Part shown: one piece after another, positions 4,999 to 46,223 of the stretch
Numbering within the stretch: position 1 is the first letter of the stretch
How the letters are laid out: the number at the start of each line of letters is the position of its first letter
Source: a phage
Sequence record: PZ386971.1
Length of the DNA: 64,000 bases
Strand: one strand, 5' to 3'
Position numbers and translations under genes: made by a program
Notes under the pieces: model-generated
What the model was told of the DNA's origin: nothing
Database searches by the model: none
What the model saw: the letters and a program-made list of their open reading frames with translations, nothing else

Positions 4999-5022
4999 AC
5001 CCCGCTGAGGCGGGGTTTAGTT
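4999..5022. terminator. Bidirectional terminator hairpin between convergent genes
   Basis: accccgcTGAGgcggggt flanked by T/A runs, between the + ORF ending 4992 and the - gene ending 5017. Confidence 0.5.
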
Positions 5023-6801
5023 TTCCAGTTCATACCGGATAAGACCACACCCCCAGATACGCCCCAACCCGGCTTCCACCGACAGCATATCCTCTGTTTT
5101 GCCTTCTATATCGTATCCAAGTTTAAGGAATTTCTCTTTCCTGAAATTGAATTTGTGTATACGTAAGCTATAGTCTGGTGTCACATATTTGTAATCAGGG
5201 GGAAGGATTTCCTTTTCAACAAATCCGTTATTCAGGTAAACATTTTTCAGACGACTGACAACACAACGATCACCAAAAGAATATACTGTCTCACCCCGAT
5301 GTCGAGCGATATAATATTTCAGCAAGCGTGAGAATGCGCCATGGCAATTGTTAGAAGCAAATCTCACCAATTCAATACCATGCACTCGTTTGGTAAACAA
5401 CATCACCGCCTGGATATTCCCAGTTTTGTCTACAAGGTGTATATAATCTGTCGCCACCACACCACCTTGTATATGGAATCGGTCGAGAAAGTCCTTGGAC
5501 GTCCTATAGGAGCCTTCCAAAATGGTATGTTGGCGAGCGTATGACAATGGTTTCCCTATCCCCAATTTTGCTTTTAGGAGTGATTTAACCACTTCCTGTT
5601 TGTCACGCCACTCATCTTCCCAGATATGGATTAATTGAATACCCTGGGATTCACAGTGCATAGTCTTTTCAAGATGGTAGTCTTTGTATCGATGTTTCTC
5701 CGAATGCCAATACAACCCATTAAATTCTATTGCCAACTTATGTTCTGGGCAGTATATGTCTATCTGGCGTGTGGTCGCCCTCCCGTCGAACATTTTACCT
5801 CTGAGGACGGAGAAATTACCAGATTCATAAACGACACCCAATGAATCCAGGTATGAACATATTTCTATTTCTGGCTGTGTTTGGCTTTGGCTGCTGGGGT
5901 ATGTGAAAGAGTTCCTATATTCTTCAGAAGAGAAATAGTGAGGTACGCCGTATTTTTCTTTTGAAATGATCCTGGTATTGGCCTGGCTTCTATCCCATAT
6001 AGCCTTTACCTTCAACGGATAATCAACCCCATATTTTAAGACGCATGTTTTCTTTCTCTTTTCTATAATGGAATTGAGGAACATTGGATGATCCACACCA
6101 TAGATCTTCCTCCAAGTCTCAATCACCCTTTCCCTCACTTCTGGCATTTTCATGACGTGTGATACGCCATAGCGTTCCATGACAGAAGCAGCCACTCTGT
6201 CCTTTATAACATCAGACTTCATAGGGTGGTCGACCCCATATTTCTTAAGGGCAGTTTCCCGTGACTTTTGTTTTACTTCTTCCAGTTGGAATATGTTGGC
6301 TACGCCATATTTCTCTGTTATGGCGTTTTCTAGGTTGGCCCGTTCTGAGCCTCCCACCTTCATTGATTCTCGTTGGCATTCTTCGGAACAAAACTTTTTG
6401 TATCTGGGCGGTTGGGCTTCCATTTCTAAGCCGACGTCAGCACCGCAAGTGGCACACTGCGACTTCGGAATATCGTACAGCCAAGCAGTTATCGCTTGTG
6501 GTTCTTCTAATAGGTCGTTGTGTGACACCACGTATCCAACAACATCAACCCCAGTATGGGCCGTGAGTAGGGGATGAGAGATAAGTTTGTAGTTCAACGA
6601 ACCATCTTTCTTCCTGAGTTTACTATCAACCCAAGAGCGGCATTCGGTTTCGGTCGTCGGGATGTCATCCAACAAACCCGGATTGCGTTTCATCGTTCCC
6701 AGCATGAATGATTTGCATTCGTCACTACAATACAACGCAGCCTTCCTGGTTGGGGTGAACGGTTTGTGGCAGCATAAACAATTTTTATCGGGGAATGGCA
6801 T
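5017..6801 (-). CDS. Homing-endonuclease-like protein: N-terminal Cys cluster, six tandem KYGV..HP repeats, Vsr/DUF559-like PD-(D/E)XK nuclease domain
   Basis: 594 aa from ATG 6801 (GAGGAT SD); N-terminal CLCCH..C..C; repeats KYGVANI / KYGVDHPM / RYGVSHVM / IYGVDHPM / KYGVDYPL / KYGVPHYF; IDIYCPEHKLAIEFNGLYWHSE...IHIWEDEW resembles the Vsr/DUF559 fold; antisense insertion between conserved sheath and tube genes. Confidence 0.55.
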   Translation of the reverse strand: MPFPDKNCLCCHKPFTPTRKAALYCSDECKSFMLGTMKRNPGLLDDIPTTETECRSWVDSKLRKKDGSLNYKLISHPLLTAHTGVDVVGYVVSHNDLLEEPQAITAWLYDIPKSQCATCGADVGLEMEAQPPRYKKFCSEECQRESMKVGGSERANLENAITEKYGVANIFQLEEVKQKSRETALKKYGVDHPMKSDVIKDRVAASVMERYGVSHVMKMPEVRERVIETWRKIYGVDHPMFLNSIIEKRKKTCVLKYGVDYPLKVKAIWDRSQANTRIISKEKYGVPHYFSSEEYRNSFTYPSSQSQTQPEIEICSYLDSLGVVYESGNFSVLRGKMFDGRATTRQIDIYCPEHKLAIEFNGLYWHSEKHRYKDYHLEKTMHCESQGIQLIHIWEDEWRDKQEVVKSLLKAKLGIGKPLSYARQHTILEGSYRTSKDFLDRFHIQGGVVATDYIHLVDKTGNIQAVMLFTKRVHGIELVRFASNNCHGAFSRLLKYYIARHRGETVYSFGDRCVVSRLKNVYLNNGFVEKEILPPDYKYVTPDYSLRIHKFNFRKEKFLKLGYDIEGKTEDMLSVEAGLGRIWGCGLIRYELEN

Positions 6802-14838: not shown

Positions 14839-15261
14839 ATGAAGAAGTATATCGTTCTCATTACGGGTTCCCGCTCAATCACCGAGCGGGATAAGGTATT
14901 CGCCAAGCTGGACGAACTCCTCGATCCTCATGAAGTCTATACGTTGATCGAGGGTGAGGCCACGGGTGTCGACACGATTTGCCGTGATTGGGCTGAAATC
15001 AATTATGTTCATATCACCCCCATGCCGATCCCTCCGAGCTATTATGAAAAGTATGGGAACGGGATGGGTAACAAACGCAATCAGGACATGTTAGACAAGG
15101 CATTGGATCTCGTCAGGCAGACCAAGCTGGAAGTGTATCCGATTGCGATGTGGGATGGTTCGTCCACTGGCACCCTGGACATGATCAACCGTTGCAAGAA
15201 AGCTGGCCTCCCTGTGGATATCACTCTAATGGGTAAGCCGAAGACCAAGCGCCTTTTGTAA
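14839..15261 (+). CDS. SLOG-superfamily (DUF2493/YspA-like) nucleotide-binding protein
   Basis: 140 aa; VLITGSRSITERD ... EGEATGVDTICRDWAE pattern typical of DprA/LOG-like Rossmann domains found in phages. Confidence 0.5.
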   Translation: MKKYIVLITGSRSITERDKVFAKLDELLDPHEVYTLIEGEATGVDTICRDWAEINYVHITPMPIPPSYYEKYGNGMGNKRNQDMLDKALDLVRQTKLEVYPIAMWDGSSTGTLDMINRCKKAGLPVDITLMGKPKTKRLL

Positions 15262-15302
15262 CATATCATAAATAATTTGAGTACACACAGCGGAGATACA
15301 TC

Positions 15303-15473
15303 ATGTTTGTCGTCATCAATCTGTTCTGCTATATCTTCACGGCGTACTTCTTGGGCGCGGTATGGATCGAGACCTACAATGACCTGAAGGATGGGGAATA
15401 CGCCAACCGAATGGTTTATGTCAAGAAGTTTGTTCGTAAGTTCTGGTCCAACTTCGTTTACAAACTACCATGA
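15303..15473 (+). CDS. Small predicted membrane protein (56 aa)
   Basis: Not in the ORF track (under 60 aa); GGAGA SD; hydrophobic helix MFVVINLFCYIFTAYFLGAVW. Confidence 0.35.
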   Translation: MFVVINLFCYIFTAYFLGAVWIETYNDLKDGEYANRMVYVKKFVRKFWSNFVYKLP

Positions 15474-15511
15474 TCCCTAAATACCCCCATCATCCATGGG
15501 GGTATTTTCTT

Positions 15512-16240
15512 ATGAACGCACAGATCTATGACGCCCTATCGCAGGGCAACGCCTTTACCAATCCTCTCCCGTCCCTCAGCAGCGCCTCACAGGGGTTAAT
15601 CACCAGTGGTAAGGCGACTACAGCGTCACTGGCTAACACCGGAAATACGCAGATTCAGGAAGCGCTGACGGCAGGTGGGTTGACTACAGCCAAACTCAAC
15701 GAATCTACGGCGATGTTCAACTCAGCAAACACCAGCATCACCACGCTGATCAACTATGGCGACCAGTCAGTGAACGAGGCATATTCCCGCATCGGTACAT
15801 CTGTGTCGTATAAGTCCGCCCTGAAGTCTATAGGTCGAGAACCGAACAACTGTGATCTGATCAATAATGCATTTGGGGTTATTCAGAACCTCGGCAAACA
15901 GTGGATCAATACCATGCAAAGTGTTCTCACAACTATCACAAACAAGATGAATGAGTTGGCTGAATTGGTAGCTCAGGGTGTCAGTGCTGGTCTTGATGCT
16001 ATTCGGGCACTGGCTGCTGAAGTTACTCAGGCCATCGACACTGCTGTCGCATCAGTAGCCTCTATTGCTCAGGACATCACGAACGGTATTGCAGCAGAGT
16101 TAGCCCATATCCAAGACATGGTTGGTAAGTGTCTTAACTTCTCTTTTGCCAACGTGATCTCAGAGTGGGCGAAAGATATCTGCGCCGGAGGTGTCATCAA
16201 CAGCATTGGTTCCGATAATCTGAAGAACGCACTGAAGTAA
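15512..16240 (+). CDS. Hypothetical alpha-helical protein (243 aa), possibly late or virion-associated
   Basis: ATG 15512 preceded by late-like motif CCTAAATAC inside a hairpin; Ala/Thr/Ser-rich helical sequence. Confidence 0.5.
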   Translation: MNAQIYDALSQGNAFTNPLPSLSSASQGLITSGKATTASLANTGNTQIQEALTAGGLTTAKLNESTAMFNSANTSITTLINYGDQSVNEAYSRIGTSVSYKSALKSIGREPNNCDLINNAFGVIQNLGKQWINTMQSVLTTITNKMNELAELVAQGVSAGLDAIRALAAEVTQAIDTAVASVASIAQDITNGIAAELAHIQDMVGKCLNFSFANVISEWAKDICAGGVINSIGSDNLKNALK

Positions 16241-16648
16241 TCAGTGCTCCCGCGCCGGAAGAACTCCCACTGGTTCGATGCCATCCAACAGCAGGGAGTT
16301 CACACCCACATTACTCAGTCTGATCAAGATCGTTCCCCCTGGGTTAACTTCAAAGATACTCATCCCATTTCCAACCGCGTCGTTGTTAACGAACACACCC
16401 TGAGTTGCGATTCGTACTGGTTTATCTGAGTCATTCATGATCTTGAACGTCACGATTATATCCGATGTTGTACCCAGTCGTCCAACCATGCGTTGCTTCA
16501 GCTTGGCATAGAATGATGGATTAAAAGTGATAATGATGCTGTTGTTCTGAGAGTAATAAATACTGGCTGAAAGGTATGGAATCTTCCCTTCATCGCCACG
16601 CCGCAGGAGAGGAATTGTGGTCTTCCAGTATGGCTTGAGGGTGCTCAT
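16241..16648 (-). CDS. Hypothetical protein (136 aa), convergent with the upstream + gene
   Basis: C-terminal 136 aa of the minus ORF read as a well-behaved beta-rich protein (MSTLKPYWKTT...); the upstream part of that ORF is W/C/R-rich antisense-like junk. Confidence 0.4.
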   Translation of the reverse strand: MSTLKPYWKTTIPLLRRGDEGKIPYLSASIYYSQNNSIIITFNPSFYAKLKQRMVGRLGTTSDIIVTFKIMNDSDKPVRIATQGVFVNNDAVGNGMSIFEVNPGGTILIRLSNVGVNSLLLDGIEPVGVLPAREH

Positions 16649-16917
16649 GTTCTCATCAAAGCAACCTAAAGGTACGAGCTTCTGGAAGGGCTGGAACTCT
16701 TGCACGATGATGTCCAGCATACCCTTGTTACAAGTGGGAACGCTGGCCGACAACATCACAGGTACGGTGCGCACTTCCGGGGTCCAGAGTTCGGAAACAG
16801 AAATTATTGGCGTGACAAAGATACGACAGCTCGTAAACAAGAGCATCGAGCATGCCAACAACAATCTACTGATCCCGCGCATCAGGGTCACAAAATATCT
16901 CCACAGCAAAGGTGCTA

Positions 16918-17420
16918 TTATGTCCAACGTACAATTCAAGAACGAAAACCCTAATTTCGCGGCGTCCGATAAGTGGCGTCTGACTATCGGAGACCTTGTA
17001 CTCCTAACCCGTAACATCCACGACTTCAGTATACCAGGGGTGTACTCCGAAGGCATCGATGGTCCGTCGCCAGGAGACGTACTGGTTTCTATTCCTTCAG
17101 AACGTTTAACCTATGATCCCGTCGTATTTACTTTCGTTATAGACGAGGACTGGAAATCATGGTTACAGATCCACCAATGGATTACCAGCAACGTCGGCAA
17201 GGATTTGCCTGTCAGCAAGGACATTACCATTGAATTGCTGGATAACCTCAACCGACCGATTGGCCTCACTCTAGTGCTGGAGGAAGCCCGCCCGACTGCT
17301 TTGGACAACGTACTGGTGGACGTAGACGCGGCTGTACCTCAGCTGGTGACGACAGTGACCTTCAAGTTCCAACAGCTGGTTCCACTATCTGGTGGGAAGG
17401 CGATTGATTCTAATCAGTGA
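16918..17420 (+). CDS. Hypothetical protein (167 aa; N-terminus may extend to about 16707)
   Basis: ATG 16918 with AAAGGTG SD; protein-like sequence to the stop at 17420. Confidence 0.5.
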
Positions 17421-17464
17421 AATGCGGTATAATTCTCTATGACATTGACAAGCTGGGATATTTT

Positions 17465-17917
17465 ATGAAAGAACAACTACAGACAATGGCTACCGAGGAC
17501 ATCATGAACGAACTGGAGCCACTGATCACAGTGGACCCAGAAGACATGAACCTTGACCAGATCTCGCTGAAAATCGGGCGCTCTTGGATGGCTGTACAGC
17601 GGCATTATCTGCGCGAGGGGCGTTATCTTGAATTCCTCAATGGGCGCTTCCGTCAGATAGATCTCTATTTGCGCCGCTACTATGCAGGGGAGTTACCCCC
17701 GAACATCTACGCAGAGCGCCCCCTGAAGGTTCGCCCCCTGAAGTCTGACCTGGATACATGGGTCAAAGCAGACGATGACTATGTGGAGTTGTCTGTTCTG
17801 TTACAAGAACAAAAAGCAAAAGTCAAGTTCATAGAGACTTGTTTGGATCGCCTGAACAAACTGGGATACGAAGTGAAAAATGCTATTGAATGGAGAAAGT
17901 ATCTCGATGGTGTATAA
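17465..17917 (+). CDS. uvsY: UvsY-like recombination mediator
   Basis: 151 aa; YYAGELP...DLDTWVKADDDYVELSVLL...LGYEVKNAIEWRKY parallels T4 UvsY YYSGRGD...VLSADKDVLKVDTSLQY...RGFAIKHIQDMR; adjacent to uvsW as in T4. Confidence 0.55.
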   Translation: MKEQLQTMATEDIMNELEPLITVDPEDMNLDQISLKIGRSWMAVQRHYLREGRYLEFLNGRFRQIDLYLRRYYAGELPPNIYAERPLKVRPLKSDLDTWVKADDDYVELSVLLQEQKAKVKFIETCLDRLNKLGYEVKNAIEWRKYLDGV

Positions 17918-17932
17918 CAAGGATCACACATA

Positions 17933-18679
17933 ATGGCATCTCTCCAGGATCTACGCAAGCTGAATGACTTCGAAAACCGCCATTACACATTCCAGCAGTA
18001 CGAACTTCCTTACAAGGAACTGGAGTGTGTGACGACGGAAAACGGTCGTCATTATGTATCGCCGACTGGCGTCAAGCTGACATCCGTCACGACTATGCTG
18101 GGGCGTACTGGTGATCATGAATGGCTTGAGGCTTGGAGGAAGAAGCTAGGTGCAGAGGCCGCCGACCTTGAGACCATGCGTTGCGCTGACCGAGGGGAGA
18201 AGCTGCACCTTGCATGCGAACTGTATTTGAAGAACCGCCCAATGAAAGAAGTGTTGGAAGCGGCTGGCGAATACATGTTCATGTTCAAGCAGCTGTTCCC
18301 CTATCTGAACAAGATGACAAAGATCTATGCTCAGGAGATCCCATTATACAGCGAGGTGCTTGGTCTTGCAGGTCGAGTGGACCTTATTGGGATTTATGAG
18401 GGTAAACCTGCTATCATCGACTTCAAGACATCGAACATCATGAAGACGCGGGGAATGATCGAGGACTACAGTATCCAGCTGTGCTTATATTCGGTCATGT
18501 TCCAGCAGATGTTCGGTGTCAAGATCACCCGCCTCATCAATGTGATCGCCAACGAGTCTTCCCCTCTACCAACCGTCATTGAGTTCAACCGTGATGACAT
18601 CCTGACAAAGATGTTTGAGCGTGTTCGTCTGTACCATCGCATGGATAAAGAACAGAACGGAGTCTGGCCAGATCACTAA
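17933..18679 (+). CDS. PD-(D/E)XK nuclease, Cas4/RecB-like
   Basis: 248 aa; GRVDLIGIYEGKPAIIDFKTS (D...D/ExK) followed by QLCLY (QxxxY motif). Confidence 0.6.
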   Translation: MASLQDLRKLNDFENRHYTFQQYELPYKELECVTTENGRHYVSPTGVKLTSVTTMLGRTGDHEWLEAWRKKLGAEAADLETMRCADRGEKLHLACELYLKNRPMKEVLEAAGEYMFMFKQLFPYLNKMTKIYAQEIPLYSEVLGLAGRVDLIGIYEGKPAIIDFKTSNIMKTRGMIEDYSIQLCLYSVMFQQMFGVKITRLINVIANESSPLPTVIEFNRDDILTKMFERVRLYHRMDKEQNGVWPDH

Positions 18680-18683
18680 ATAC
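18674..18683 (+). promoter_or_regulatory. Late-promoter-like motif CACTAAATAC upstream of uvsW
   Basis: Same motif as upstream of the scaffold gene, about 25 nt before ATG 18708. Confidence 0.3.
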
Positions 18684-18707
18684 CCCATAATTCTTGGGAG
18701 ATTTTGT

Positions 18708-20216
18708 ATGGCAGACATCCAGATTGTTAAGGTTAATGAAGTCCGCATGCGTTGCATCGCAGATCTTTCTATCAGGGAAGAACTGAATGACTACTTCAAA
18801 TTCGAAGACCCGAACTTCGTTCCCAACCCCTTCTCTAAATGGGACGGGGTTGTTCGCTTGTTCACCAAGTCATCCGGCCTGATTGATATCGGCCTACTGT
18901 TTGAGGTGTTCAAGTTCTGCAAGAACAACAACTACACCATTGAACTGGATCCGGCTCTGAAGTACATTCAGGACATCCCAGACCAAGAAATCCATGACTT
19001 CATCAACAGTCTGCATCCAAAGATCCGCACCGAAAATCACGAATATATCGATGCCGAGACTCGTGACTACCAGTACGACACCATCGCCAAGGCTATGCGT
19101 CAAACCAGATGCGTCTGTGAACTGGCTACGAGTGCCGGTAAGTCCTTTATTCTGTATGTCATGGCGCGGTACTACAGGCAGCGCAGAGAAGCTCTCGAAA
19201 GTCCTCTGAAGACGCTTATCGTGGTTCCGTCAATTCACCTGGTCACTCAGCTGTACGACAACTTTGAAGAGTACGCACACGGCAGTGATTGGAAGCCCGT
19301 TGTCAACACTCAATTGATCTTTGAGGGCGCGACAAAGGAAATCAGCAAACCAATCGTCATCAGTACATGGCAGGGTATTCAAGACCAGCCGAAGGAATGG
19401 TTCCACCAGTTCGGTGATATCGTGGTGGATGAAGTGCACACCTCCAAGTCTGAGAAACTGTCTTACATCCTAAACAACTGCATCTATGCCGACCAGCGCC
19501 TGGGGGTTACAGGTACGCTGGCGAATACCAAAGTTGCCGGGCTTCAGGTGGTGGCTCACTTCGGGGCGTACCATAAGATCATCACGGCTCGCGATCTTAT
19601 CAATCTCGGGTACGCCACTGACATCAAAGTGAAGATGATTCAGCTGAAGCACACTCCGGCGGATGCTGTTGGTCTAGACGGGGATTATTCCAAGGAAATA
19701 GAATACCTTATCACACACCAGTCCCGCAACGAACTGATCGCCAAGATGGCACTGAATCTGAAAGGAAACGTGGCCATCATGTTCGAACGTATTGATGGTC
19801 ACATGATGGTCGTGTATGATATGCTGAGCGCAGTCAAGCCCAACGTGTTTGTCATCAACGGGGAAGTGAAGATCGAAGACCGCCGCCGCATACAGAAAGC
19901 GATGGAGGATGGAGAGGACATCACCCTGTTGGCATCATACGGGACAATGCAGCAGGGAGTGTCGATCAAGAAGCTACACCACCTTGTACTGGCACACCCG
20001 AGCAAGTCATATATCCGCGTCATACAGACATTGGGTCGTCTGATGCGTCAGCACTCCTCTAAGGACGTCGCGTGGATATGGGACTTAGTGGATGATGCAT
20101 CGTACAACGCCAGCACGAACCACGCTCTTAGGCACTCTCACGAGCGTTACAAGTTTTACCTGGCAGAGCGCCACCCTGTGGAATTCATGAAGGTGGCGCT
20201 GGGTAATCACGATTAA
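18708..20216 (+). CDS. uvsW: UvsW SF2 helicase
   Basis: ELATSAGKS Walker A, DEVH box, QPKEWFHQFG and KKLHHLVLAH match T4 UvsW QPKEWFSQFG and KNLHHVVLAH. Confidence 0.9.
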   Translation: MADIQIVKVNEVRMRCIADLSIREELNDYFKFEDPNFVPNPFSKWDGVVRLFTKSSGLIDIGLLFEVFKFCKNNNYTIELDPALKYIQDIPDQEIHDFINSLHPKIRTENHEYIDAETRDYQYDTIAKAMRQTRCVCELATSAGKSFILYVMARYYRQRREALESPLKTLIVVPSIHLVTQLYDNFEEYAHGSDWKPVVNTQLIFEGATKEISKPIVISTWQGIQDQPKEWFHQFGDIVVDEVHTSKSEKLSYILNNCIYADQRLGVTGTLANTKVAGLQVVAHFGAYHKIITARDLINLGYATDIKVKMIQLKHTPADAVGLDGDYSKEIEYLITHQSRNELIAKMALNLKGNVAIMFERIDGHMMVVYDMLSAVKPNVFVINGEVKIEDRRRIQKAMEDGEDITLLASYGTMQQGVSIKKLHHLVLAHPSKSYIRVIQTLGRLMRQHSSKDVAWIWDLVDDASYNASTNHALRHSHERYKFYLAERHPVEFMKVALGNHD

Positions 20217-20584
20217 TCTTGATTCACATAGGCGGGGGTGGCCTCGCCTTCATCAGATACTACGCCGAACAATTTGTCCAGAGAAGCCAGACATTGTGAG
20301 TTCAGGTGTTCACTGATCGTATCCTTCAGCATTTGTTCGCTGCCCATTTTGAATGGTAGAACCTTCGCTTCGATGCCGTTTTCAAACGTCACAACACCGA
20401 CATACAGACCAACTTTCAGGCCTGTCATCAAGCCAAGAGGGACAAATCGCGGCTCCGATGGTAAGTTCTTGTCTGACGCCAGCTGTGCCAGATAAACTGG
20501 GGTGCCTGTGACAAATTGCCCTGCGGTGAGGATGGCGTCTGGCTTACTGCATCCGACCGCATATAATCCTACGAACTGTTTCAT
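20213..20584 (-). CDS. Hypothetical protein (123 aa)
   Basis: Clean minus-strand ORF convergent with uvsW; AT-rich promoter region upstream. Confidence 0.5.
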   Translation of the reverse strand: MKQFVGLYAVGCSKPDAILTAGQFVTGTPVYLAQLASDKNLPSEPRFVPLGLMTGLKVGLYVGVVTFENGIEAKVLPFKMGSEQMLKDTISEHLNSQCLASLDKLFGVVSDEGEATPAYVNQD

Positions 20585-20768
20585 ATATTACTCTCGTGTG
20601 TTGGTTAACCTGACATACATATTATTTCGCATGCATGTTTAGACCAAATTAAATTAATTTTGCTGTTGAATAAAAAATTGCTTTCCTGTTGAACAATGGC
20701 GTGGTATTATACGAGTTGTGAGTGTTAACGAACAACGAGTATTTGTTTTATGAGCGAAGCGAATAGGA

Positions 20769-20817
20769 TTAATAAAGATTATTATCTTTAATAAAGGTTA
20801 TTATCTTTAATAAAGTC
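20769..20817. repeat. Tandem near-palindromic repeats, 2.5 copies of AATAAAG(A/G)TTATTATCTTT
   Basis: Each unit holds the inverted repeat AAAGAT-TATT-ATCTTT; lies in a 364-bp AT-rich divergent intergenic region. Confidence 0.6.
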
Positions 20818-20838
20818 CATAAATGCCGAAGGCATTTA
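20818..20838. promoter_or_regulatory. Perfect palindrome ATAAATGCC-GAA-GGCATTTAT (hairpin or operator)
   Basis: 9-bp inverted repeat with 3-nt spacer, directly after the tandem repeats. Confidence 0.45.
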
Positions 20839-20948
20839 TTAATAACGCGTAGCGCAATTTGCCACTTGTTCTATAAACAAAACACAGCGATACTAGATTG
20901 CGTCAAACATGACTTGAACCCCCCACTATATTTTGAGGATACATACAA

Positions 20949-21617
20949 ATGCAAGAGATCACTCTCTCCGAACGTACACTTCAGTTGCTGGCCAACTTTG
21001 AGACCATCAACCCATCTATCGTCCTGACACCGGGTAAGATGCTGCGCAGCATTAACGATTCGTCTACTGTTATCGCCGTGGCACAGATCGAAGAAGACTT
21101 CCCGTTTGAGTTCCCTATCCTGGACCTGACCAAACTTCTGGCCATCCAGCGCCTGCCTTCCTTCAAAGGTGGTAAAGCCGAATTCCATCAGGACTACATC
21201 CTGTTGAAAGGCGAAAACTCTCAGCTGCAATTCTGGCGTTCTGCTAAAGAACTCACTGTTGTTCCGGCTGACACCATTGAACTGCCGTCTGTCGACTTTG
21301 AAGCGATCATCACTCCAGAGAAGATGAAAGAACTGACCCGCGCCTGTTCTACCCTCGGACACAAGACTGTGCGCCTGGTTGCTCAGGGTGGCAAAACTCG
21401 CCTGGTTGCAACCACCACTACCCTGGACAACTCCAACAACTACACTGTTGAGCTGGGCGAAACCGCGCTGCCGGACTTCGTAATGCCGCTGGATGTTGCC
21501 AACCTGAAAATGATCGAAGGCAACTACACTCTGCGTGCCTGTGCTGATCTACAGATGGTGAACTTCCAATCATCCGACGCGACGATCAATTACTTCGTCG
21601 GCGCACAGATTGAGTAA
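20949..21617 (+). CDS. 45: Sliding clamp (T4 gp45-like)
   Basis: 222 aa; LLANFETINPSIVL and NLKMIEGNYTL resemble T4 gp45 LLKNFATINSGIML and NMKMQPGNYKL. Confidence 0.85.
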   Translation: MQEITLSERTLQLLANFETINPSIVLTPGKMLRSINDSSTVIAVAQIEEDFPFEFPILDLTKLLAIQRLPSFKGGKAEFHQDYILLKGENSQLQFWRSAKELTVVPADTIELPSVDFEAIITPEKMKELTRACSTLGHKTVRLVAQGGKTRLVATTTTLDNSNNYTVELGETALPDFVMPLDVANLKMIEGNYTLRACADLQMVNFQSSDATINYFVGAQIE

Positions 21618-41407: not shown

Positions 41408-41452
41408 AGTTTCATTCCTCTTTCTATAAAACCAGTTTGGGATATTTATATC

Positions 41453-41980
41453 ATGATAGAAATTTATTCTGACGGGGGTTCTAACCCGAAGACCAACCAG
41501 GCCGCAGGCTGGGCATTTGTCATCAGGCCAATAACGGGTATGCAATGGAAGGTGTTCTTCGGTCATCTACCTCCCCCGTCCACTAACAATATCGCCGAGT
41601 TGTTGGGTGTGACCAACGCATTGAAGCTACTGTGGGCATTCTCAGGAAAGGGTGAGCGCAGAATACCAAAGGCAACAATTTGGTCTGACAGCCAATATGC
41701 CATCAAGAGTGTCACCGAATGGCGAGCGAAGTGGGAGTATCAGGGTTTCCCAGAAAAGAACGTTGAACTCATCAAAGATCTGTTCAGAATCTATGATCTC
41801 GTTTGTTCAATTTGTGATGTTGAACTAAAATGGGTTAAGGGTCATGCGGGGCACGAAGGCAACGAACTTGCCGATGACTGGGCCACAGCAGCCAAAAACG
41901 ACAGCAACTTCCTGATTGAGAATGACAAGATCTCAGTGAAGAAGGTTGTTGGATCTTTTGATGAATTTATCGGTATCTGA
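41453..41980 (+). CDS. rnhA: Ribonuclease HI
   Basis: YSDGGS...GWAFVI, TNNIAELLGV, WSDSQYAI, VKGHAGHEGNELADDWA match the RNase H type 1 catalytic motifs. Confidence 0.85.
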   Translation: MIEIYSDGGSNPKTNQAAGWAFVIRPITGMQWKVFFGHLPPPSTNNIAELLGVTNALKLLWAFSGKGERRIPKATIWSDSQYAIKSVTEWRAKWEYQGFPEKNVELIKDLFRIYDLVCSICDVELKWVKGHAGHEGNELADDWATAAKNDSNFLIENDKISVKKVVGSFDEFIGI

Positions 41981-41991
41981 GGGCTTTCATA

Positions 41992-42783
41992 ATGGGAATG
42001 AACTTCGTGGACAGAGGGGAGAATGTCGTCAAATATTTCACGGACGAAGACAACGAGCGTGTCATTAGTATCCTTCGTGATTGGATCCCCGCCCGCAAGA
42101 AAGCACTTGCTGAGGGCACCAGGCTTCCAAAGATCCCCAACTATGTTGCTCTGCAGGTCCAGCGCATCATCACCAAGATGAGTACCCGCTACAACTATCG
42201 CGACTATCCCTTCCGTGAAGACATGGTCTCTGAAGCAATAGTCAACATCCTGCGCTACCTCCACACCTTTGACGTCGAACACATTGGAAAGAAAGGGAAG
42301 ATCAACTTCTTCTCTTGGGTGACCATGTGCGCTGATCGATCATTCGCTCGTAAACTGAATATCGAAGAAGAACACACGTACATCAAATTGCGCTCATTTG
42401 AAGAGGCGGGTGGGTTCGCAGGCCTGGCAGACGATCCCGACTTCCAACAAGAGATCTTTGTTGACGCGACAGGGATTGGTATGGACTTCCGTGAGCGTAT
42501 CGGTAACTTTGAGAACAAAAAGGACGCTCAAAGGCAGAAGGAGCGAGAGAAGGTGGAGGCGGCTCGTCTCGCAGAATCGAATAAAAAGATTGCGAAAGGC
42601 ATACTTCAATACATGGCGCAGGCTAAGAATACGGTAACAGCGCAGGCCGAAGACAATTCAGATCAGGACTTTGGCAAAACCCAATTCAATCTGGAAGATG
42701 ATATCTGTGCGATGGAACCAGATTGGGAAGCCCTCAAACAAAGATTAGAAGAACGGGAGAAAAAGAATAATGGCGATTGCTAA
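41992..42783 (+). CDS. 55: Late sigma factor (T4 gp55-like)
   Basis: NFFSWVTMCADRSFARKLNIEEEH resembles T4 gp55 [24 protein letters not shown]; lies upstream of gp47/gp46 as in T4. Confidence 0.6.
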   Translation: MGMNFVDRGENVVKYFTDEDNERVISILRDWIPARKKALAEGTRLPKIPNYVALQVQRIITKMSTRYNYRDYPFREDMVSEAIVNILRYLHTFDVEHIGKKGKINFFSWVTMCADRSFARKLNIEEEHTYIKLRSFEEAGGFAGLADDPDFQQEIFVDATGIGMDFRERIGNFENKKDAQRQKEREKVEAARLAESNKKIAKGILQYMAQAKNTVTAQAEDNSDQDFGKTQFNLEDDICAMEPDWEALKQRLEEREKKNNGDC

Positions 42784-43885
42784 AATCGGCGATCTGCATA
42801 TCGGGAGCCGTAATGGTTCCCGATACGTTCGCGACTTCATCAAGAACTACCTCATCAATTATTTCATCCCTGAACTTGTCGCCTCCGACATCCATGAGGT
42901 CTGGCAGTTTGGTGACACATTTGACGTCCGCAAATTCATGTACGGGCGTGACAAGGACTGGTTGAAAGATGAGCTGACTCCGGCGCTGAAAGCTGCTGGG
43001 ATCAAGTGGAATGGTATTGTTGGCAACCACGACATCACCCTGGAAGAGTCTAACCGCATCAACTGGCCATCCTACCTGAACGAACTCGACCCAGATGTAT
43101 ACTGCTATTATAGCGAACCGACCGAAGTGATGATCGAGGGTGTCAAGACTCTGCTCCTACCGTGGATCAACAAGGAGAACTATGATGCGTCTATTAAGGC
43201 GTTACAAGATACAGACGCCGAGTACTGTTTTGCGCATCTGGAGTTGGCAGGGTTCAAAATGTACCAGTCCTCTACTTGTGATCACGGTCAGATCGACGTT
43301 GCGTTGCTTTCCAAGTTTACCAGGGTCGACACGGGGCATTTCCATACCCGTTCGATGGAAGGTAACATTCAGTATCTTGGGACTCCGTATCACCTGAACT
43401 GGGAAGACTACAAAGATGGCACCAACCGTGGCTTCTATGTGGACGACATGCGCGGCGGTGAGGTATTCATTCCCAACAGCGAGCACCAGACGTTGTTCCG
43501 CTATGTGGAATATGATTACACCAAGTTGTCCTCAGACGATGAGGGTAACTGGATCGACCCGGAATGGTTGAACACAGGCTTGGGTATTGAAGGGCAAATC
43601 GTTAAGGTTATTGTACAGAATCGCGACAATGCTAAGCATTATGAAAAGTTCTGTGATGCAATGAAGCGATGCAAGTGTATTGACTACAACTTCATCGACC
43701 GGACTATTACCGTAGCGGCTGAGAAGGTTGAGGTCACCGAAGAGATGGTGGCAACCGACGCAGTGGAAGTCCTAAAGAAGGATATCCGCGCCGGGAACAA
43801 CATCCAGCGCCCTGAAAACGTCTGCAAGCTAGCAGAGCACTTCTACAACGCTGCCCAACAACGCCTGAATACACTGGATGCATAA
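42770..43885 (+). CDS. 47: Recombination nuclease subunit (T4 gp47, Mre11-like)
   Basis: Calcineurin-like phosphoesterase motifs GDLHIG, GNHD, GHFH; followed by the gp46 gene. Confidence 0.85.
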   Translation: MAIAKIGDLHIGSRNGSRYVRDFIKNYLINYFIPELVASDIHEVWQFGDTFDVRKFMYGRDKDWLKDELTPALKAAGIKWNGIVGNHDITLEESNRINWPSYLNELDPDVYCYYSEPTEVMIEGVKTLLLPWINKENYDASIKALQDTDAEYCFAHLELAGFKMYQSSTCDHGQIDVALLSKFTRVDTGHFHTRSMEGNIQYLGTPYHLNWEDYKDGTNRGFYVDDMRGGEVFIPNSEHQTLFRYVEYDYTKLSSDDEGNWIDPEWLNTGLGIEGQIVKVIVQNRDNAKHYEKFCDAMKRCKCIDYNFIDRTITVAAEKVEVTEEMVATDAVEVLKKDIRAGNNIQRPENVCKLAEHFYNAAQQRLNTLDA

Positions 43886-43886
43886 C

Positions 43887-46223
43887 ATGACTCAAAGTAC
43901 AGATATCCTGGCCAAATTTGGCAATCTTTTGAAGGAAGCTGACACCCCGGTAGAGGTGGAAGTCCCATTTGAAGTGCGTGATAACGTTACGCACAAACTG
44001 ACTTTCCGCAAAGGTCGCGCCAAGAACTTCCGCTCCATCGGCAATCAGTTCATGGAGATTGATTATCAGCGCAACCCAGCCACCCTTGTCACGTCTGATG
44101 ACAACGGCGCGGGTAAATCCACGATGTTGGTATGGCTGCTGTTCTTCGTACTGTACAACACCACGTACAGTAAGAAGGAGAAGAAGGCAGGCCTGGTTAA
44201 CTCACAAAGCCGCAAGGAATGTGTGGGTGAGGTAGAGTTTGCCTGTCGTGGTAGTGAATGGAAAGTTCGCCGGGGTATCAAGCCCGACTTTGTTGAAGTC
44301 TACCAGATGGTGGACGGTAAGTGGTTGCAGATCGATAACGAAGCAGCCAAGGCCGACATGAACAAGTACATCGTGAACCTCATCGGTGTAGACCAGAAGA
44401 TGTTTGAGAACTCTCTGGTGCTGGGTAAAGAGAAGTTCATTCCGTTTACGGAGATGTACACTGCCGACCGTCGCGCCATGGTGGAGACAATTTGGGACTT
44501 GGGCTTCTTCAGCCTGATGAACGAAGATGTCAAGGCCGCCATCAAAAAGGCAAATACAACTCTGGACTCCATATCTAACGAATGCGCACTGAAGGTTATT
44601 GACCACACCAACAAGAAGACGCAGCTTCAGCAGATCGAGCAATCCAACGCCCTGATCCAACAGCAGTCGGCCGATATCCTTGTACAGCAACAGGAAGCCC
44701 TGAATTCCCTGGATGCTGACATCGCTTCCCAGAACGAAGAGCGCAGCCGCCTCACTGCGGTTGAGTTCGAAGCCACCCAGGAAATGAAGACGGTAGAAAA
44801 CCGCCTGAATGATGAATCCATGGTGGAGATCGAGGCTATCAAGAAAGACTTTGATGCCAAGATCCAGGCGGTGAAGGATGCCGCTCAGGAAAAGGCCGAT
44901 GATTATGAGCGCATCGAAGTGTCTACTGCGGAGCATGAACTTCAGGTCTTGCGTGACCGTGCCTTTACAGTGGCCGAAAGCAAGAACACCCTGCTCACCG
45001 AGCGCAACACAAACCTGGACGCCCTGAACGCTGCTATTCAGCGCCGCCAGCAGGGTGAGAACTTCCGCATCAAGTTCCAGACCGAAATGGACGGACATCA
45101 GTCGGCCATCAAGCGCTTCCACGACATGGGGACTTGCCCTACCTGTACCCAACTGGTGTCTGATGACACCAAGGCGCGGATTGAGAGTGAGTACAATCCT
45201 CAGATCCAGGAACTGCAGTCGAAGTTAGATCAACTAGACAAAGTTACCGCCGATATCAATGTCCTGATCGATGATCACAAGGCTCAGGACGATAAGTTGG
45301 TTGCTGACATTGCTGTGTTGGACACTGAACTGGATGCAATGCGCAAGCAGGCTGACGAAATCGTTGACAACATCAAGCAGCTGCGCCGTGATATTCAAGG
45401 TTTTCATGATGCTGCCACGATTGAGTGTAATTCACTGAACCGTGAATGTCAACAGAAGATCCTTGACATCCGTAAGGCACTGAACGTTCGTTTTGAAGAC
45501 ATCACTGCGTCACTACAACAAACTCGAGAGAATGCCGTCAGCGGGATTAAAGCCGTCGATGATAAGATCGCCGAGCTGAAAGCCCGTCGTGCTCCTCTCG
45601 TGGCGTCTATTGCCGATCTGGAGCGTAAACTGGCTGTACAACCAACGCCTACCGCCGAACTAGAGAACTCTATCGCTGTGTTGGAAGGTGAACTGGAGGA
45701 TCTATACCAGCGCCGCGAGGATGCCGATCAGGAACTCCAGGACTTACAGCACCTCCTGTTCTTCCTGAAGGATGACCAGACCAAGGCGCGTATCATCGCC
45801 CTGTATCTGCCATTCCTCAATAGCAAGATCAACGAGTATCTTGAAGCCCTCAACATGTTCTTGGACATCGTTGTTGACGATACCTTTGAGATCACCATGA
45901 GTGCAGCAGGCCGCAAGGGGCAGAGTATCTTCTCCCTGTCTACTGGCCAGCGGAGCCGCCTGAACCTGGCGGTGACATTAGCTCTGCGTGACGTGGCTAA
46001 CCTCAAGGCATCAGTGCAATGTAACCTGTTTGTCCTGGATGAAATCCTTGAGAACATGAGCGAGCGCGGGGTGCAGGAATCGGTTGAGATGCTGAAGCAT
46101 AAGTTCGGCGGGAACAACCTGTTTGTCATCAGCCAGCGTGAGCAGGAGTTCCAGGAATACTTCCAACACAACATTCGCTACGGCCTACGAAACGGCCTGA
46201 CCGAAGTTATCAAGAAGGATTGA
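43887..46223 (+). CDS. 46: Recombination ATPase subunit (T4 gp46, Rad50-like)
   Basis: N-terminal P-loop DDNGAGKST, long coiled-coil, CPTC zinc hook; start could be ATG 43878 instead. Confidence 0.85.
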   Translation: MTQSTDILAKFGNLLKEADTPVEVEVPFEVRDNVTHKLTFRKGRAKNFRSIGNQFMEIDYQRNPATLVTSDDNGAGKSTMLVWLLFFVLYNTTYSKKEKKAGLVNSQSRKECVGEVEFACRGSEWKVRRGIKPDFVEVYQMVDGKWLQIDNEAAKADMNKYIVNLIGVDQKMFENSLVLGKEKFIPFTEMYTADRRAMVETIWDLGFFSLMNEDVKAAIKKANTTLDSISNECALKVIDHTNKKTQLQQIEQSNALIQQQSADILVQQQEALNSLDADIASQNEERSRLTAVEFEATQEMKTVENRLNDESMVEIEAIKKDFDAKIQAVKDAAQEKADDYERIEVSTAEHELQVLRDRAFTVAESKNTLLTERNTNLDALNAAIQRRQQGENFRIKFQTEMDGHQSAIKRFHDMGTCPTCTQLVSDDTKARIESEYNPQIQELQSKLDQLDKVTADINVLIDDHKAQDDKLVADIAVLDTELDAMRKQADEIVDNIKQLRRDIQGFHDAATIECNSLNRECQQKILDIRKALNVRFEDITASLQQTRENAVSGIKAVDDKIAELKARRAPLVASIADLERKLAVQPTPTAELENSIAVLEGELEDLYQRREDADQELQDLQHLLFFLKDDQTKARIIALYLPFLNSKINEYLEALNMFLDIVVDDTFEITMSAAGRKGQSIFSLSTGQRSRLNLAVTLALRDVANLKASVQCNLFVLDEILENMSERGVQESVEMLKHKFGGNNLFVISQREQEFQEYFQHNIRYGLRNGLTEVIKKD

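What the first reader, a model, noticed from the sequence alone, without database searches (positions are those of the whole stretch)
17933..18679. Cas4/RecB-like PD-(D/E)XK nuclease between uvsY and uvsW
Motifs D(137)-(E/D)xK (IIDFKTS) and QxxxY are present, but no C-terminal Cys cluster was noticed. T4 has only small uvsY.-1/-2 ORFs at this position. The nuclease may process ends for UvsY/UvsX-mediated recombination or generate substrates from host DNA.
Basis: partly seen in the sequence, partly recalled or inferred. Interest (0 to 1): 0.4.

Follow-up and report, generated by a model that had tools for sequence, protein, structure and literature searches.

The report
MGME1-like exonuclease gene in an Ackermannviridae phage
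The ORF is a real, conserved phage DNA nuclease gene, but it is the viral counterpart of the mitochondrial exonuclease MGME1 rather than a Cas4, and it is already annotated in many related phages, so it is an ordinary finding with a sharper label.

Summary
The ORF at 17933-18679 (+, 248 aa) is real and lies between uvsY and uvsW. The window comes from an Ackermannviridae phage, not T4. It is 97.8% identical in DNA to Enterobacter phage fGh-Ecl02, and this gene sits at this position throughout the family, often annotated "exonuclease" (phrog_298, E 7.6e-86).

It is a RecB-type PD-(D/E)XK nuclease (Pfam PDDEXK_1 above threshold). It is not a Cas4: it scores 32 bits against a cutoff of 65 and has no conserved Cys cluster.

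Its closest characterised relative is human mitochondrial MGME1. The family profile matches MGME1 at E 9e-19, against 0.11 for Cas4. An AlphaFold model (pLDDT 92.8) matches MGME1 structures at TM 0.69/0.77, with RecE at 0.44 and Cas4 near 0.33. All seven MGME1 active-site residues align to invariant residues: H92, E135, D150, D163, K165, Q182 and Y186.

The MGME1-phage link was published in 2013. The most likely function is a metal-dependent nuclease acting on free single-stranded DNA ends or flaps during phage replication and recombination.

Linkage to uvsY/uvsW is specific to Ackermannviridae. In marine phages the homolog usually sits next to phoH and gp33.

This phage has an RNase HI-type gene. 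The closely related phage Ag3 has no detectable T4-type (FEN) RNase H, which suggests, but does not prove, a role in primer or flap removal.

The parts
17933..18679 (+). CDS of the MGME1-like RecB-type PD-(D/E)XK nuclease (248 aa, ATG to TAA)
   Evidence: ORF listed. Pfam PDDEXK_1 30.4 bits. phrog_298 'exonuclease' E 7.6e-86. The family profile matches human MGME1 at E 9e-19. The AF2 model has pLDDT 92.8, and its best Foldseek PDB hit is MGME1 5zyu at E 2e-12, TM 0.69/0.77.
17919..17923 (+). Shine-Dalgarno-like AAGGA, 9 nt upstream of the ATG
   Evidence: Read directly from the sequence printed. This is an inference from a consensus match, not a tested site.
18134..18220 (+). Codons for W68 to E96. 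This is the second arm of the predicted helical arch and carries invariant W68, R87-G88, H92 and E96, which correspond to human W152, G176, H180 and E184.
   Evidence: Invariant columns in alignment A1. Residue map to human MGME1. Helices 63-72 and 74-99 in the model. The roles of H180 and W152 in MGME1 are taken from PMC6237815.
18335..18337 (+). Codon for E135 (motif I glutamate, equivalent to human E223)
   Evidence: Invariant in 30 sequences and aligned to E223. E223 is named as an active-site residue in PMC3597694.
18380..18382 (+). Codon for D150 (motif II aspartate in GRVD, equivalent to human D238)
18419..18427 (+). Codons for D163-F164-K165 (motif III (D/E)xK within IIDFKTS, equivalent to human D251-W-K253)
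18476..18490 (+). Codons for Q182-L-C-L-Y186 (motif IV QxxxY, equivalent to human Q271 and Y275)
17465..17917 (+). uvsY (recombination mediator), the immediately upstream gene in the same orientation, separated by a 15-nt spacer
   Evidence: Pfam UvsY E 2.8e-11 and phrog_231 E 1.8e-43. The start codon is placed by analogy with the annotated CDS in fGh-Ecl02.
18708..20216 (+). uvsW helicase, the immediately downstream gene in the same orientation, separated by a 28-nt spacer with GGGAG 7 nt before its ATG
   Evidence: Pfam UvsW_N, ResIII and Helicase_C. phrog_16 E 2.2e-102. Sequence read. Annotated equivalents appear. No terminator signal above shuffled background lies between uvsY and the end of uvsW.
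41540..41977 (+). RNase HI-type gene elsewhere in the window. It is context for the primer/flap-removal hypothesis and is not physically part of the locus.
   Evidence: tblastn with Ag3 gp110 gives 97.9% identity. Pfam RNase_H PF00075 E 1.4e-20.

Best explanation
The ORF encodes a small, single-domain RecB-type PD-(D/E)XK nuclease without an Fe-S cluster. It belongs to the family that also contains the eukaryotic mitochondrial genome maintenance exonuclease MGME1.

Shown here: homology and a confident predicted fold match to MGME1, with every residue of MGME1's two-metal active site conserved (H92, E135, D150, D163, K165, Q182, Y186), plus the arch tryptophan (W68) and a loop lysine (K171).

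Inferred by analogy with MGME1: the enzyme threads a free single-stranded DNA end under a two-helix arch and cuts it in a Mg2+-dependent manner. It would therefore act as a ssDNA exonuclease and flap/tail-trimming nuclease rather than as a dsDNA resection enzyme.

Inferred from context: it is probably co-transcribed with uvsY and uvsW. It would serve phage replication and recombination by removing ssDNA flaps, displaced strands or non-homologous tails so that ligase can seal the products. The phage has separate Mre11/Rad50-like gp47/gp46 for dsDNA end resection. It has only an RNase HI-type RNase H in the window, and no T4-type FEN RNase H was detectable in the complete genome of the close relative Ag3.
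For: Identity. Pfam PDDEXK_1 is above threshold. phrog_298 'exonuclease' scores E 7.6e-86. The single-sequence best PDB hit is MGME1. The 30-sequence profile matches MGME1 at E 8.8e-19 over essentially the whole domain, against 0.11 for Cas4 SSO0001. JGI names several homologs 'genome maintenance exonuclease 1'.

Structure. The AF2 model has pLDDT 92.8 and pTM 0.88. The nine top Foldseek PDB hits are all MGME1 chains (E 2e-12 to 6e-11, TM up to 0.69/0.82, rmsd 1.9 A over 204 columns). RecE follows at 3.6e-5 and Cas4 near 1e-4.

Active site. H180/E184/E223/D238/D251/K253/K257/Q271/Y275/W152 of human MGME1 align to H92/E96/E135/D150/D163/K165/K171/Q182/Y186/W68, all invariant in 30 family members. 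The roles of these residues in MGME1 come from PMC3597694 and PMC6237815.

MGME1 biochemistry used for the analogy. It prefers ssDNA, needs free ends and is metal dependent (PMC3597694). ssDNA is bound under a helical arch (PMC6237815). It cleaves flaps so that polymerase and ligase can finish (PMC4937333).

Context. The order gp3-uvsY-nuclease-uvsW-gp45-gp44-gp62 is conserved from this phage to Vibrio phage VP-1, which is 45% identical. Spacers are short and no terminator signal exceeds background. gp46, gp47 and RNase HI are in the window. No FEN-type rnh is detectable in the complete Ag3 genome or in the window, and none is annotated in Ag3.

Distribution. At least 377 Synechococcus-phage records carry the nuclease, but only 41 carry a FEN-type rnh. 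613 Escherichia-phage records carry rnh, but only 62 carry the nuclease.
Against: No phage member of this family has been characterised biochemically in anything I could find. Substrate, polarity and biological role are therefore all by analogy.

Identity to human MGME1 is only about 25% over 188 columns.

One of the two MGME1 'pin' residues (F173) is an alanine here (A85), so duplex-unwinding or flap behaviour may differ.

The complementary distribution with FEN-type RNase H is only partial. S-PM2 and Sf-CH11 carry both genes.

Gene neighbourhood gives no consistent functional signal outside Ackermannviridae. The neighbours are phoH/gp33 in marine phages, structural and RNR genes in a jumbo phage, and housekeeping genes in SAR86 and Nitrosopumilaceae.

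The absence of a FEN-type gene rests on one tblastn query and on annotations.
Confidence: 0.6

Rival explanations
1. It is a viral Cas4: a Fe-S PD-(D/E)XK exonuclease related to CRISPR adaptation, used by the phage to process DNA ends or to interfere with host spacer acquisition.
For: It has weak sub-threshold similarity to Cas4 models: TIGR00372 E 8e-8, and phrog_1706 'CRISPR/Cas system associated' E 9e-10. Some database entries for homologs carry the name Cas4. Cas4 structures appear among the lower Foldseek hits.
Against: The TIGR00372 score of 32.3 bits is half the curated cutoff of 65. No cysteine is conserved in the family, so the defining 4-Cys Fe-S cluster is absent. The profile E-value to Cas4 SSO0001 is 0.11, against 9e-19 to MGME1. 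TM to Cas4 is about 0.33, against 0.69/0.77 to MGME1. There are no cas genes or CRISPR array among the annotated neighbours.
Confidence: 0.03
2. It is a lambda-Exo/RecE-type processive 5'-3' dsDNA exonuclease. It would resect double-strand ends to give 3' tails for UvsY/UvsX loading, acting as the nuclease half of a recombination module.
For: It has the same superfamily and catalytic motifs as RecE and lambda Exo, and RecE is the best non-MGME1 structural hit (E 3.6e-5). It lies directly between the mediator uvsY and the helicase uvsW in all Ackermannviridae examined. It is widely annotated as 'exonuclease'.
Against: Structural similarity to RecE is much weaker (TM 0.44) than to MGME1. No single-strand annealing protein partner is annotated nearby. 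The phage already encodes gp46/gp47, the T4-type resection nuclease. The uvsY/uvsW linkage is not kept outside Ackermannviridae, appearing in 2 of 80 viral loci. MGME1 itself is monomeric and prefers ssDNA (PMC6237815).
Confidence: 0.12
3. Its main job is nucleotide scavenging. It would degrade host (or surplus) DNA fragments to feed the phage nucleotide pool, rather than processing replication or recombination intermediates.
For: In marine myoviruses and Pseudomonas phage pf16 the homolog sits next to phoH. In S-PM2 it is close to thymidylate synthase. In a jumbo phage it lies upstream of ribonucleotide reductase. phoH is adjacent in 38 of 80 viral loci. Cellular homologs occur in streamlined marine oligotrophs (SAR86, Nitrosopumilaceae), where scavenging is plausible. 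MGME1 also takes part in degrading linear mtDNA, as described in the abstract of PMC6584726.
Against: Adjacency to phoH says little, because PhoH function is itself unknown. In this phage phoH is about 39 kb away and the gene lies inside a replication/recombination block. An enzyme that needs ssDNA ends requires other nucleases or helicases to make its substrate. There is no direct evidence.
Confidence: 0.2

Closest known systems
Human MGME1 (Ddk1/C20orf72), mitochondrial genome maintenance exonuclease 1; PDB 5zyu, 5zyt, 5zyv, 5zyw, 8xa9
   Same: It is a single-domain RecB-type PD-(D/E)XK fold without an Fe-S cluster. The profile match runs the full length of the domain (E 9e-19). It is the best structural match (TM 0.69/0.77, rmsd 1.9 A). 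All active-site residues (H, E, D, DxK, QxxxY), the arch tryptophan and the 'PSVT' N-terminal strand motif are conserved. Grouping of MGME1 with phage and archaeal exonucleases was already reported in PMC3597694.
   Different: Identity is only about 25%. There is no mitochondrial targeting extension. Pin residue F173 is replaced by Ala. Ackermannviridae members have an extra N-terminal segment of about 28 residues, modelled with lower confidence. The protein is encoded by a phage inside a uvsY-uvsW block. Its activity is untested.
phrog_298 'exonuclease' of T4-like cyanophages (for example S-PM2 S-PM2d196, T4-like GC 325) and other myoviruses
   Same: They belong to the same protein family: phrog_298 E 7.6e-86, and 30-36% identity by tblastn over most of the length. 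Length and motifs are the same.
   Different: The genomic position differs. In cyanophages and pf16 the order is phoH-exonuclease-gp33...gp32, whereas here it is uvsY-exonuclease-uvsW.
Cas4 (TIGR00372 / SSO0001, PDB 4ic1; type I-C Cas4 8d3l)
   Same: They share the PD-(D/E)XK superfamily branch, the motif II/III/IV arrangement and the QxxxY motif.
   Different: It scores below the family cutoff (32 against 65 bits). It has no 4-Cys Fe-S cluster. Structural overlap is poor (TM about 0.33). There is no CRISPR-cas context.
E. coli RecE / phage lambda exonuclease (PDB 3h4r, 3sm4)
   Different: TM is only 0.44. Those enzymes are toroidal oligomers that process dsDNA ends and pair with an annealing protein. 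No such partner is annotated here.
T4 RNase H (rnh, FEN-type 5'-3' exonuclease/flap endonuclease)
   Same: There is a possible functional overlap in removing 5' flaps or primers. Distribution among T4-like phages is partly complementary.
   Different: The fold and family are unrelated, with no sequence similarity. Some phages (S-PM2, Sf-CH11) carry both genes.

Membership tests
RecB-type PD-(D/E)XK nucleases (Pfam PDDEXK_1, PF12705) | Scores above the curated Pfam gathering threshold | tested here: met
   30.4 bits against a cutoff of 22, E 4.9e-7, residues 62-194.
RecB-type PD-(D/E)XK nucleases (Pfam PDDEXK_1, PF12705) | Motif II Asp, motif III (D/E)xK and motif IV QxxxY in the correct order and conserved | tested here: met
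   D150, D163-F-K165 and Q182xxxY186 are all invariant in 30 homologs.
RecB-type PD-(D/E)XK nucleases (Pfam PDDEXK_1, PF12705) | Alpha/beta restriction-endonuclease-like core fold | tested here: met
   The AF2 model has pLDDT 92.8. Foldseek hits at E<1e-3 are MGME1, RecE, Cas4, EXO5, AddA/AddB, Dna2 and AdnAB nuclease domains. This rests on a predicted structure, not a solved one.
MGME1-like exonucleases | Full-length sequence homology to MGME1 that is stronger than to other PD-(D/E)XK subfamilies | tested here: met
   Against the PDB, the profile matches MGME1 at E 8.8e-19 (profile positions 36-226 of 227). The next hit is Cas4 SSO0001 at 0.11. The single sequence also hits MGME1 first.
MGME1-like exonucleases | Active-site set H180, E223, D238, D251, K253, Q271, Y275 (human numbering) | tested here: met
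   These align to H92, E135, D150, D163, K165, Q182 and Y186, all invariant in the family. The residue list is taken from PMC3597694 and PMC6237815.
MGME1-like exonucleases | Two-helix arch over the active site, with pin residues W152 and F173 | tested here: inconclusive
   Long helices at 63-72 and 74-99 are predicted. W68 aligns to W152 and is invariant, but F173 aligns to A85. Whether the arch closes over ssDNA cannot be judged from a model.
MGME1-like exonucleases | No Fe-S cluster | tested here: met
   No conserved cysteine appears in 30 sequences. The four Cys of this protein are scattered at positions 32, 84, 95 and 184.
MGME1-like exonucleases | Metal-dependent, free-end-dependent ssDNA exonuclease/flap cleavage activity; monomeric state | not testable with these tools
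   This requires purified protein. These properties are known for human MGME1 only (PMC3597694, PMC6237815, PMC4937333).
Cas4 | Scores above the curated family cutoff (TIGR00372) | tested here: not met
   32.3 bits against a cutoff of 65.
Cas4 | Four conserved cysteines coordinating an Fe-S cluster (one N-terminal, three C-terminal) | tested here: not met
   No conserved Cys is present.
Cas4 | Genomic association with cas1/cas2 or a CRISPR array (for canonical Cas4) | tested here: not met
   The neighbours are gp3, uvsY, uvsW, gp45, gp44 and gp62. No cas genes are annotated in the Ag3 genome.
Lambda-Exo/RecE-type recombination exonuclease modules | Adjacent single-strand annealing protein partner (Red-beta/RecT/Erf type) | tested here: not met
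   None is annotated beside the gene in five Ackermannviridae genomes. The recombinase system is UvsX/UvsY.
Lambda-Exo/RecE-type recombination exonuclease modules | Toroidal oligomer acting processively on dsDNA ends | not testable with these tools
   Only a monomer was modelled. The structural match to RecE is weak (TM 0.44).

The most novel reading that the evidence does not exclude
In Ackermannviridae and most marine T4-like myoviruses, the MGME1-type nuclease together with a phage RNase HI-type enzyme is the primer- and 5'-flap-removal system that replaces the FEN-type RNase H of T4. This is the same two-nuclease logic as RNase H1 plus a flap nuclease in mitochondria. It would make these phage genes the living representatives of the source from which eukaryotes acquired MGME1, alongside the already accepted phage-derived POLG, POLRMT and Twinkle.
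Probability: 0.2. Interest if true: 0.55.

Novelty: already known. Interest (0 to 1): 0.22.

Why it matters
Practically, it corrects a label. Homologs are variously annotated 'hypothetical', 'exonuclease' or 'Cas4' in phage genomes. This one should be read as an MGME1-like ssDNA-end nuclease, which predicts substrate and mechanism more precisely.

Biologically, the family is very widespread. At least 996 phage records carry it, it is present in most marine cyanomyoviruses, and it is chromosomal in SAR86 and Nitrosopumilaceae. Yet no phage or prokaryotic member was found characterised in the literature searches run here.

If the primer/flap-removal reading holds, it would explain how T4-like phages without a detectable FEN-type RNase H mature lagging strands. 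It would also add a fourth phage-derived component to the mitochondrial DNA replication machinery. The gene itself and the MGME1-phage relationship are not new.

Tried and rejected
1. Cas4 membership. Tested with NCBIfam, cysteine conservation, a PDB profile search and fold search. Rejected.

2. Promoter and terminator scans across 15200-21200, and a search for the T4 late-promoter box TATAAATA. Counts equalled shuffled expectation. There is no late box near the gene, and the only two in the window are at 41443 and 52158. The expression class therefore remains unknown, and co-transcription with uvsY/uvsW is inferred only from short spacers and shared orientation.

3. Neighbourhood analysis in cellular genomes (SAR86, Nitrosopumilaceae, others). 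I hoped for a functional clue. The neighbours are unrelated housekeeping genes: release factor, LysRS, PAC2, nitroreductase, hydrolases and a sulfotransferase. This was uninformative beyond showing that the gene is chromosomal there.

4. Synteny with uvsW/uvsY in 80 IMG/VR loci. Only the two Ackermannviridae contigs keep it. In that script my UvsY query was mis-framed, so the UvsY count is unreliable. The UvsW, gp3 and gp45 counts are sound.

5. Strict mutual exclusion between the MGME1-like gene and the FEN-type rnh gene. Rejected, because S-PM2 and Sf-CH11 have both. Only a partial complementary pattern remains.

6. Literature searches for any biochemical work on the phage protein. None found. 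The jumbo-phage review does not mention MGME1 or Cas4.

7. My first residue mapping with mafft --keeplength dropped a human insertion and gave shifted numbers. It was redone correctly.

8. A possible PIP/clamp-binding motif in the N-terminal extension was considered by eye. It does not fit the consensus and was dropped untested.
Full report
**1. What is in the sequence**

- An ATG-to-TAA ORF lies exactly at 17933..18679 on the + strand and encodes 248 aa.
- An AAGGA Shine-Dalgarno-like site sits 9 nt before the ATG. The uvsY stop codon lies 15 nt upstream.
- The upstream ORF is UvsY (Pfam PF11056 E 2.8e-11; phrog_231 E 1.8e-43). Its real start is probably 17465, by analogy with the annotated relative.
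- The downstream ORF is UvsW (UvsW_N, ResIII, Helicase_C; phrog_16 E 2.2e-102). Its ATG is at 18708, 28 nt after the nuclease stop, with GGGAG 7 nt before it.
- 'D137' is misnumbered. The motif II aspartate is D150 in GRVD.
- The protein has four scattered cysteines (32, 84, 95, 184). None is conserved among homologs.

**2. Where the window comes from**

- The 2.9-kb block uvsY-nuclease-uvsW is 97.8% identical to Enterobacter phage fGh-Ecl02. It is 92-96% identical to a group of Escherichia, Shigella, Salmonella and Enterobacter phages that includes Shigella phage Ag3 (Agtrevirus). Dickeya phage Ds9CZ (Limestonevirus) matches at about 90%. All of these are Ackermannviridae.
- T4 is therefore the wrong comparator.
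- In Ackermannviridae the order gp3 - uvsY - nuclease - uvsW - (small antisense ORF) - gp45 - gp44 - gp62 - regA is standard. It appears in fGh-Ecl02, Ag3, Dickeya phage Ds9CZ, Shigella phage ChubbyThor and the distant Vibrio phage VP-1, whose nuclease is only 45% identical.
- RefSeq and several submitters already call the gene 'exonuclease' or 'putative exonuclease'.

**3. What the protein is**

- Pfam places it in PDDEXK_1 at 30.4 bits, above the gathering score of 22. PHROGs places it in phrog_298 'exonuclease' at E 7.6e-86.
- The Cas4 model TIGR00372 gives 32.3 bits, half its cutoff of 65.
- A phmmer search of the PDB with the single sequence returns human MGME1 as its best hits (E about 5e-3).
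- A database search found 2227 homologs. JGI names several of them 'genome maintenance exonuclease 1'.
- I aligned 30 diverse members (A1, down to 32% identity). Invariant columns include W68, R87, G88, H92, E96, E135, G147-R-V-D150, D163, K165, T166, K171, Q182 and Y186.
- A profile of A1 matches MGME1 chains at E 8.8e-19 across essentially the whole domain. The next structure is Cas4 SSO0001 at E 0.11.
- AlphaFold2 on A1 gave a confident model (mean pLDDT 92.8, pTM 0.88).
- Foldseek against the PDB returns nine MGME1 chains first (E 2e-12 to 6e-11; TM 0.69 normalised by query and 0.77 by target for 5zyu; rmsd 1.9 A over 204 columns). RecE follows (3.6e-5, TM 0.44), then Cas4 structures (about 1e-4, TM about 0.33), then EXO5, AddAB, Dna2 and AdnAB.
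- I added the human MGME1 fragment printed to A1 and mapped residues. H180, E184, E223, D238, D251, K253, K257, Q271, Y275 and W152 align to H92, E96, E135, D150, D163, K165, K171, Q182, Y186 and W68. Only the second 'pin' residue differs (F173 to A85). Identity is 25.5% over 188 columns.
The protein is a bona fide PD-(D/E)XK nuclease of the MGME1 type, not the Cas4 type.

**4. Is the MGME1 link new?**

- No. Szczesny et al. [quoted passage not shown] They suggested a phage origin parallel to POLG, POLRMT and Twinkle.
- A BFVD entry for an uncultured siphovirus is already named after MGME1.
- I found no paper that characterises a phage member.

**5. Distribution and context of the family**

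- tblastn finds the protein in 996 phage records. About 280 are at 60% identity or more; those listed are Ackermannviridae-type phages of about 140-160 kb. The rest are mostly Synechococcus, Prochlorococcus and cyanophage myoviruses, Vibrio phages, jumbo coliphages and Klebsiella phages, and Rhizobium, Stenotrophomonas and Pseudomonas T4-like phages.
- The gene's position varies between lineages.

| Lineage | Gene order around the nuclease |
|---|---|
| Cyanophage S-PM2 | td ... phoH - exonuclease - gp33 - DUF1825 - gp32 |
| Pseudomonas phage pf16 | phoH - exonuclease, with gp32 about 3 kb further on |
| Jumbo coliphage E9.1 | Between virion genes and ribonucleotide reductase |

- Among 80 IMG/VR loci, phoH is upstream in 38 and gp33 is downstream in 21. 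uvsW is adjacent in only 2, and both of those are Ackermannviridae contigs.
- The physical linkage to uvsY and uvsW is therefore a lineage-specific arrangement, not a family-wide coupling.
- A scan of one genome per prokaryotic species found the family on long chromosomal contigs of Nitrosopumilaceae and SAR86, and in a few other marine or freshwater MAGs. There it is flanked by unrelated housekeeping genes.

**6. How it most likely works**

- What is shown is homology, a predicted fold and conservation of the active site. The rest is inferred from MGME1.
- MGME1 is a metal-dependent DNase that needs free ends and strongly prefers ssDNA (PMC3597694).
- It binds ssDNA under a two-helix arch next to a two-metal site (PMC6237815).
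- It cleaves flaps imprecisely, so that the polymerase's own exonuclease and ligase can finish (PMC4937333).
- In mitochondria, primer removal needs RNase H1 plus a second, flap-type nuclease (PMC6182146).
- The phage context fits a comparable role. The gene lies in a block of recombination and replication genes.
- Within the window, the phage also carries gp47/gp46 for dsDNA end resection (42770-46220) and an RNase HI-type gene (41540-41977, PF00075 E 1.4e-20).
- Elsewhere in the Ag3 genome are DexA, UvsX, gp32, a RuvC-like resolvase, ligase and gp43.
- I could not detect a T4-type FEN RNase H. tblastn with the S-PM2 rnh protein finds 1807 phage records including T4. It gives nothing better than E 0.84 against the complete Ag3 genome, and nothing in the window. 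None is annotated in Ag3.
- Across the phage collection the two genes are partly complementary. By record counts, 377 Synechococcus-phage records carry the MGME1-like gene against 41 with rnh. 613 Escherichia-phage records carry rnh against 62 with the MGME1-like gene.
- The complementarity is not strict. S-PM2 and Sf-CH11 carry both.
- My preferred reading is a ssDNA-end and flap-trimming nuclease serving replication and recombination-dependent replication.
- A more specific and more speculative version has it act as the flap partner of the phage RNase HI.
- Nucleotide scavenging and RecE-like dsDNA resection remain as rivals. Cas4 is excluded as a family assignment.

**7. Verdict**

- The gene is a well-conserved, already annotated core gene of Ackermannviridae. 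It belongs to a family whose kinship with MGME1 was published in 2013.
- This is an ordinary finding with a sharper annotation. The untested primer/flap-removal hypothesis is the only part with some wider interest.

Noticed in passing
window 41540-41977 (+); compared with locus L007 21282-21722 (Ag3 gp110): The phage encodes a short (146 aa) RNase HI-type protein (PF00075, matching profile positions 35-139 only) beside gp55/gp47/gp46. No T4-type FEN RNase H is detectable in the complete Ag3 genome or in the window. Lagging-strand primer removal in Ackermannviridae is therefore not explained by the T4 model.
   Followed up: partly
L171 777-1526 (Shigella phage ChubbyThor); L172 1584-4178 (Dickeya phage Ds9CZ): Relatives carry insertions in this block. 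ChubbyThor has a 'putative endonuclease' ORF inserted between uvsY and the nuclease gene. In Ds9CZ, uvsW is annotated in two pieces separated by a 669-nt ORF. This suggests homing-endonuclease or intron/intein traffic at this locus, which is absent from the window.
   Followed up: partly
L018, L026, L043 (Nitrosopumilaceae); L042, L062, L066, L071 (SAR86); match at about 5001-5650 in each: Homologs of the nuclease (30-37% identity) lie on long chromosomal contigs of ammonia-oxidising Thaumarchaeota and SAR86 gammaproteobacteria, among housekeeping genes (PAC2, nitroreductase, release factor, LysRS, peptidase S51). The family is therefore cellular as well as viral.
   Followed up: partly
L003 3243-4910 (S-PM2); L005 3076-4741 (pf16); 38 of the loci L091-L170: Outside Ackermannviridae the nuclease gene is most often immediately downstream of phoH and upstream of gp33. 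This recurrent phoH-nuclease pairing has no known meaning.
   Followed up: partly
window 20213-20584 (-) and 20585-20948: A conserved 123-aa ORF of unknown function (phrog_4255, E 3.3e-49) lies antisense between uvsW and gp45. It is followed by an AT-rich (GC about 0.38) 360-nt intergenic region with two hairpin/terminator-like sites (20596-20618 on +, 20839-20819 on -). This region is likely a transcription boundary and promoter region for the gp45-gp44-gp62 operon.
   Followed up: no
window 17915-17935: The uvsY stop codon (TAA, 17915-17917) is in the same reading frame as the nuclease ORF and only five codons upstream of its ATG. The two genes are therefore separated by one stop codon in frame. 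This is probably without significance, but it fits translational coupling.
   Followed up: no
window 18683-18699: A small 5-bp hairpin (CCCCA...TGGGA) overlaps the GGGAG ribosome-binding site of uvsW. It is within the background count of the scan, so it is probably chance.
   Followed up: no
L001 (ON212266.1 record header) compared: The nearest relative, fGh-Ecl02, is filed in GenBank under Cvivirinae; Kuttervirus. Yet at this locus the window and fGh-Ecl02 are much closer to Agtrevirus Ag3 (94.5% nt; nuclease 96.8% aa in SKML-39 and PP35) than to the Kuttervirus type phage Vi01 (nuclease 85% aa). The record's genus label may be wrong, or the locus may be mosaic.
   Followed up: no
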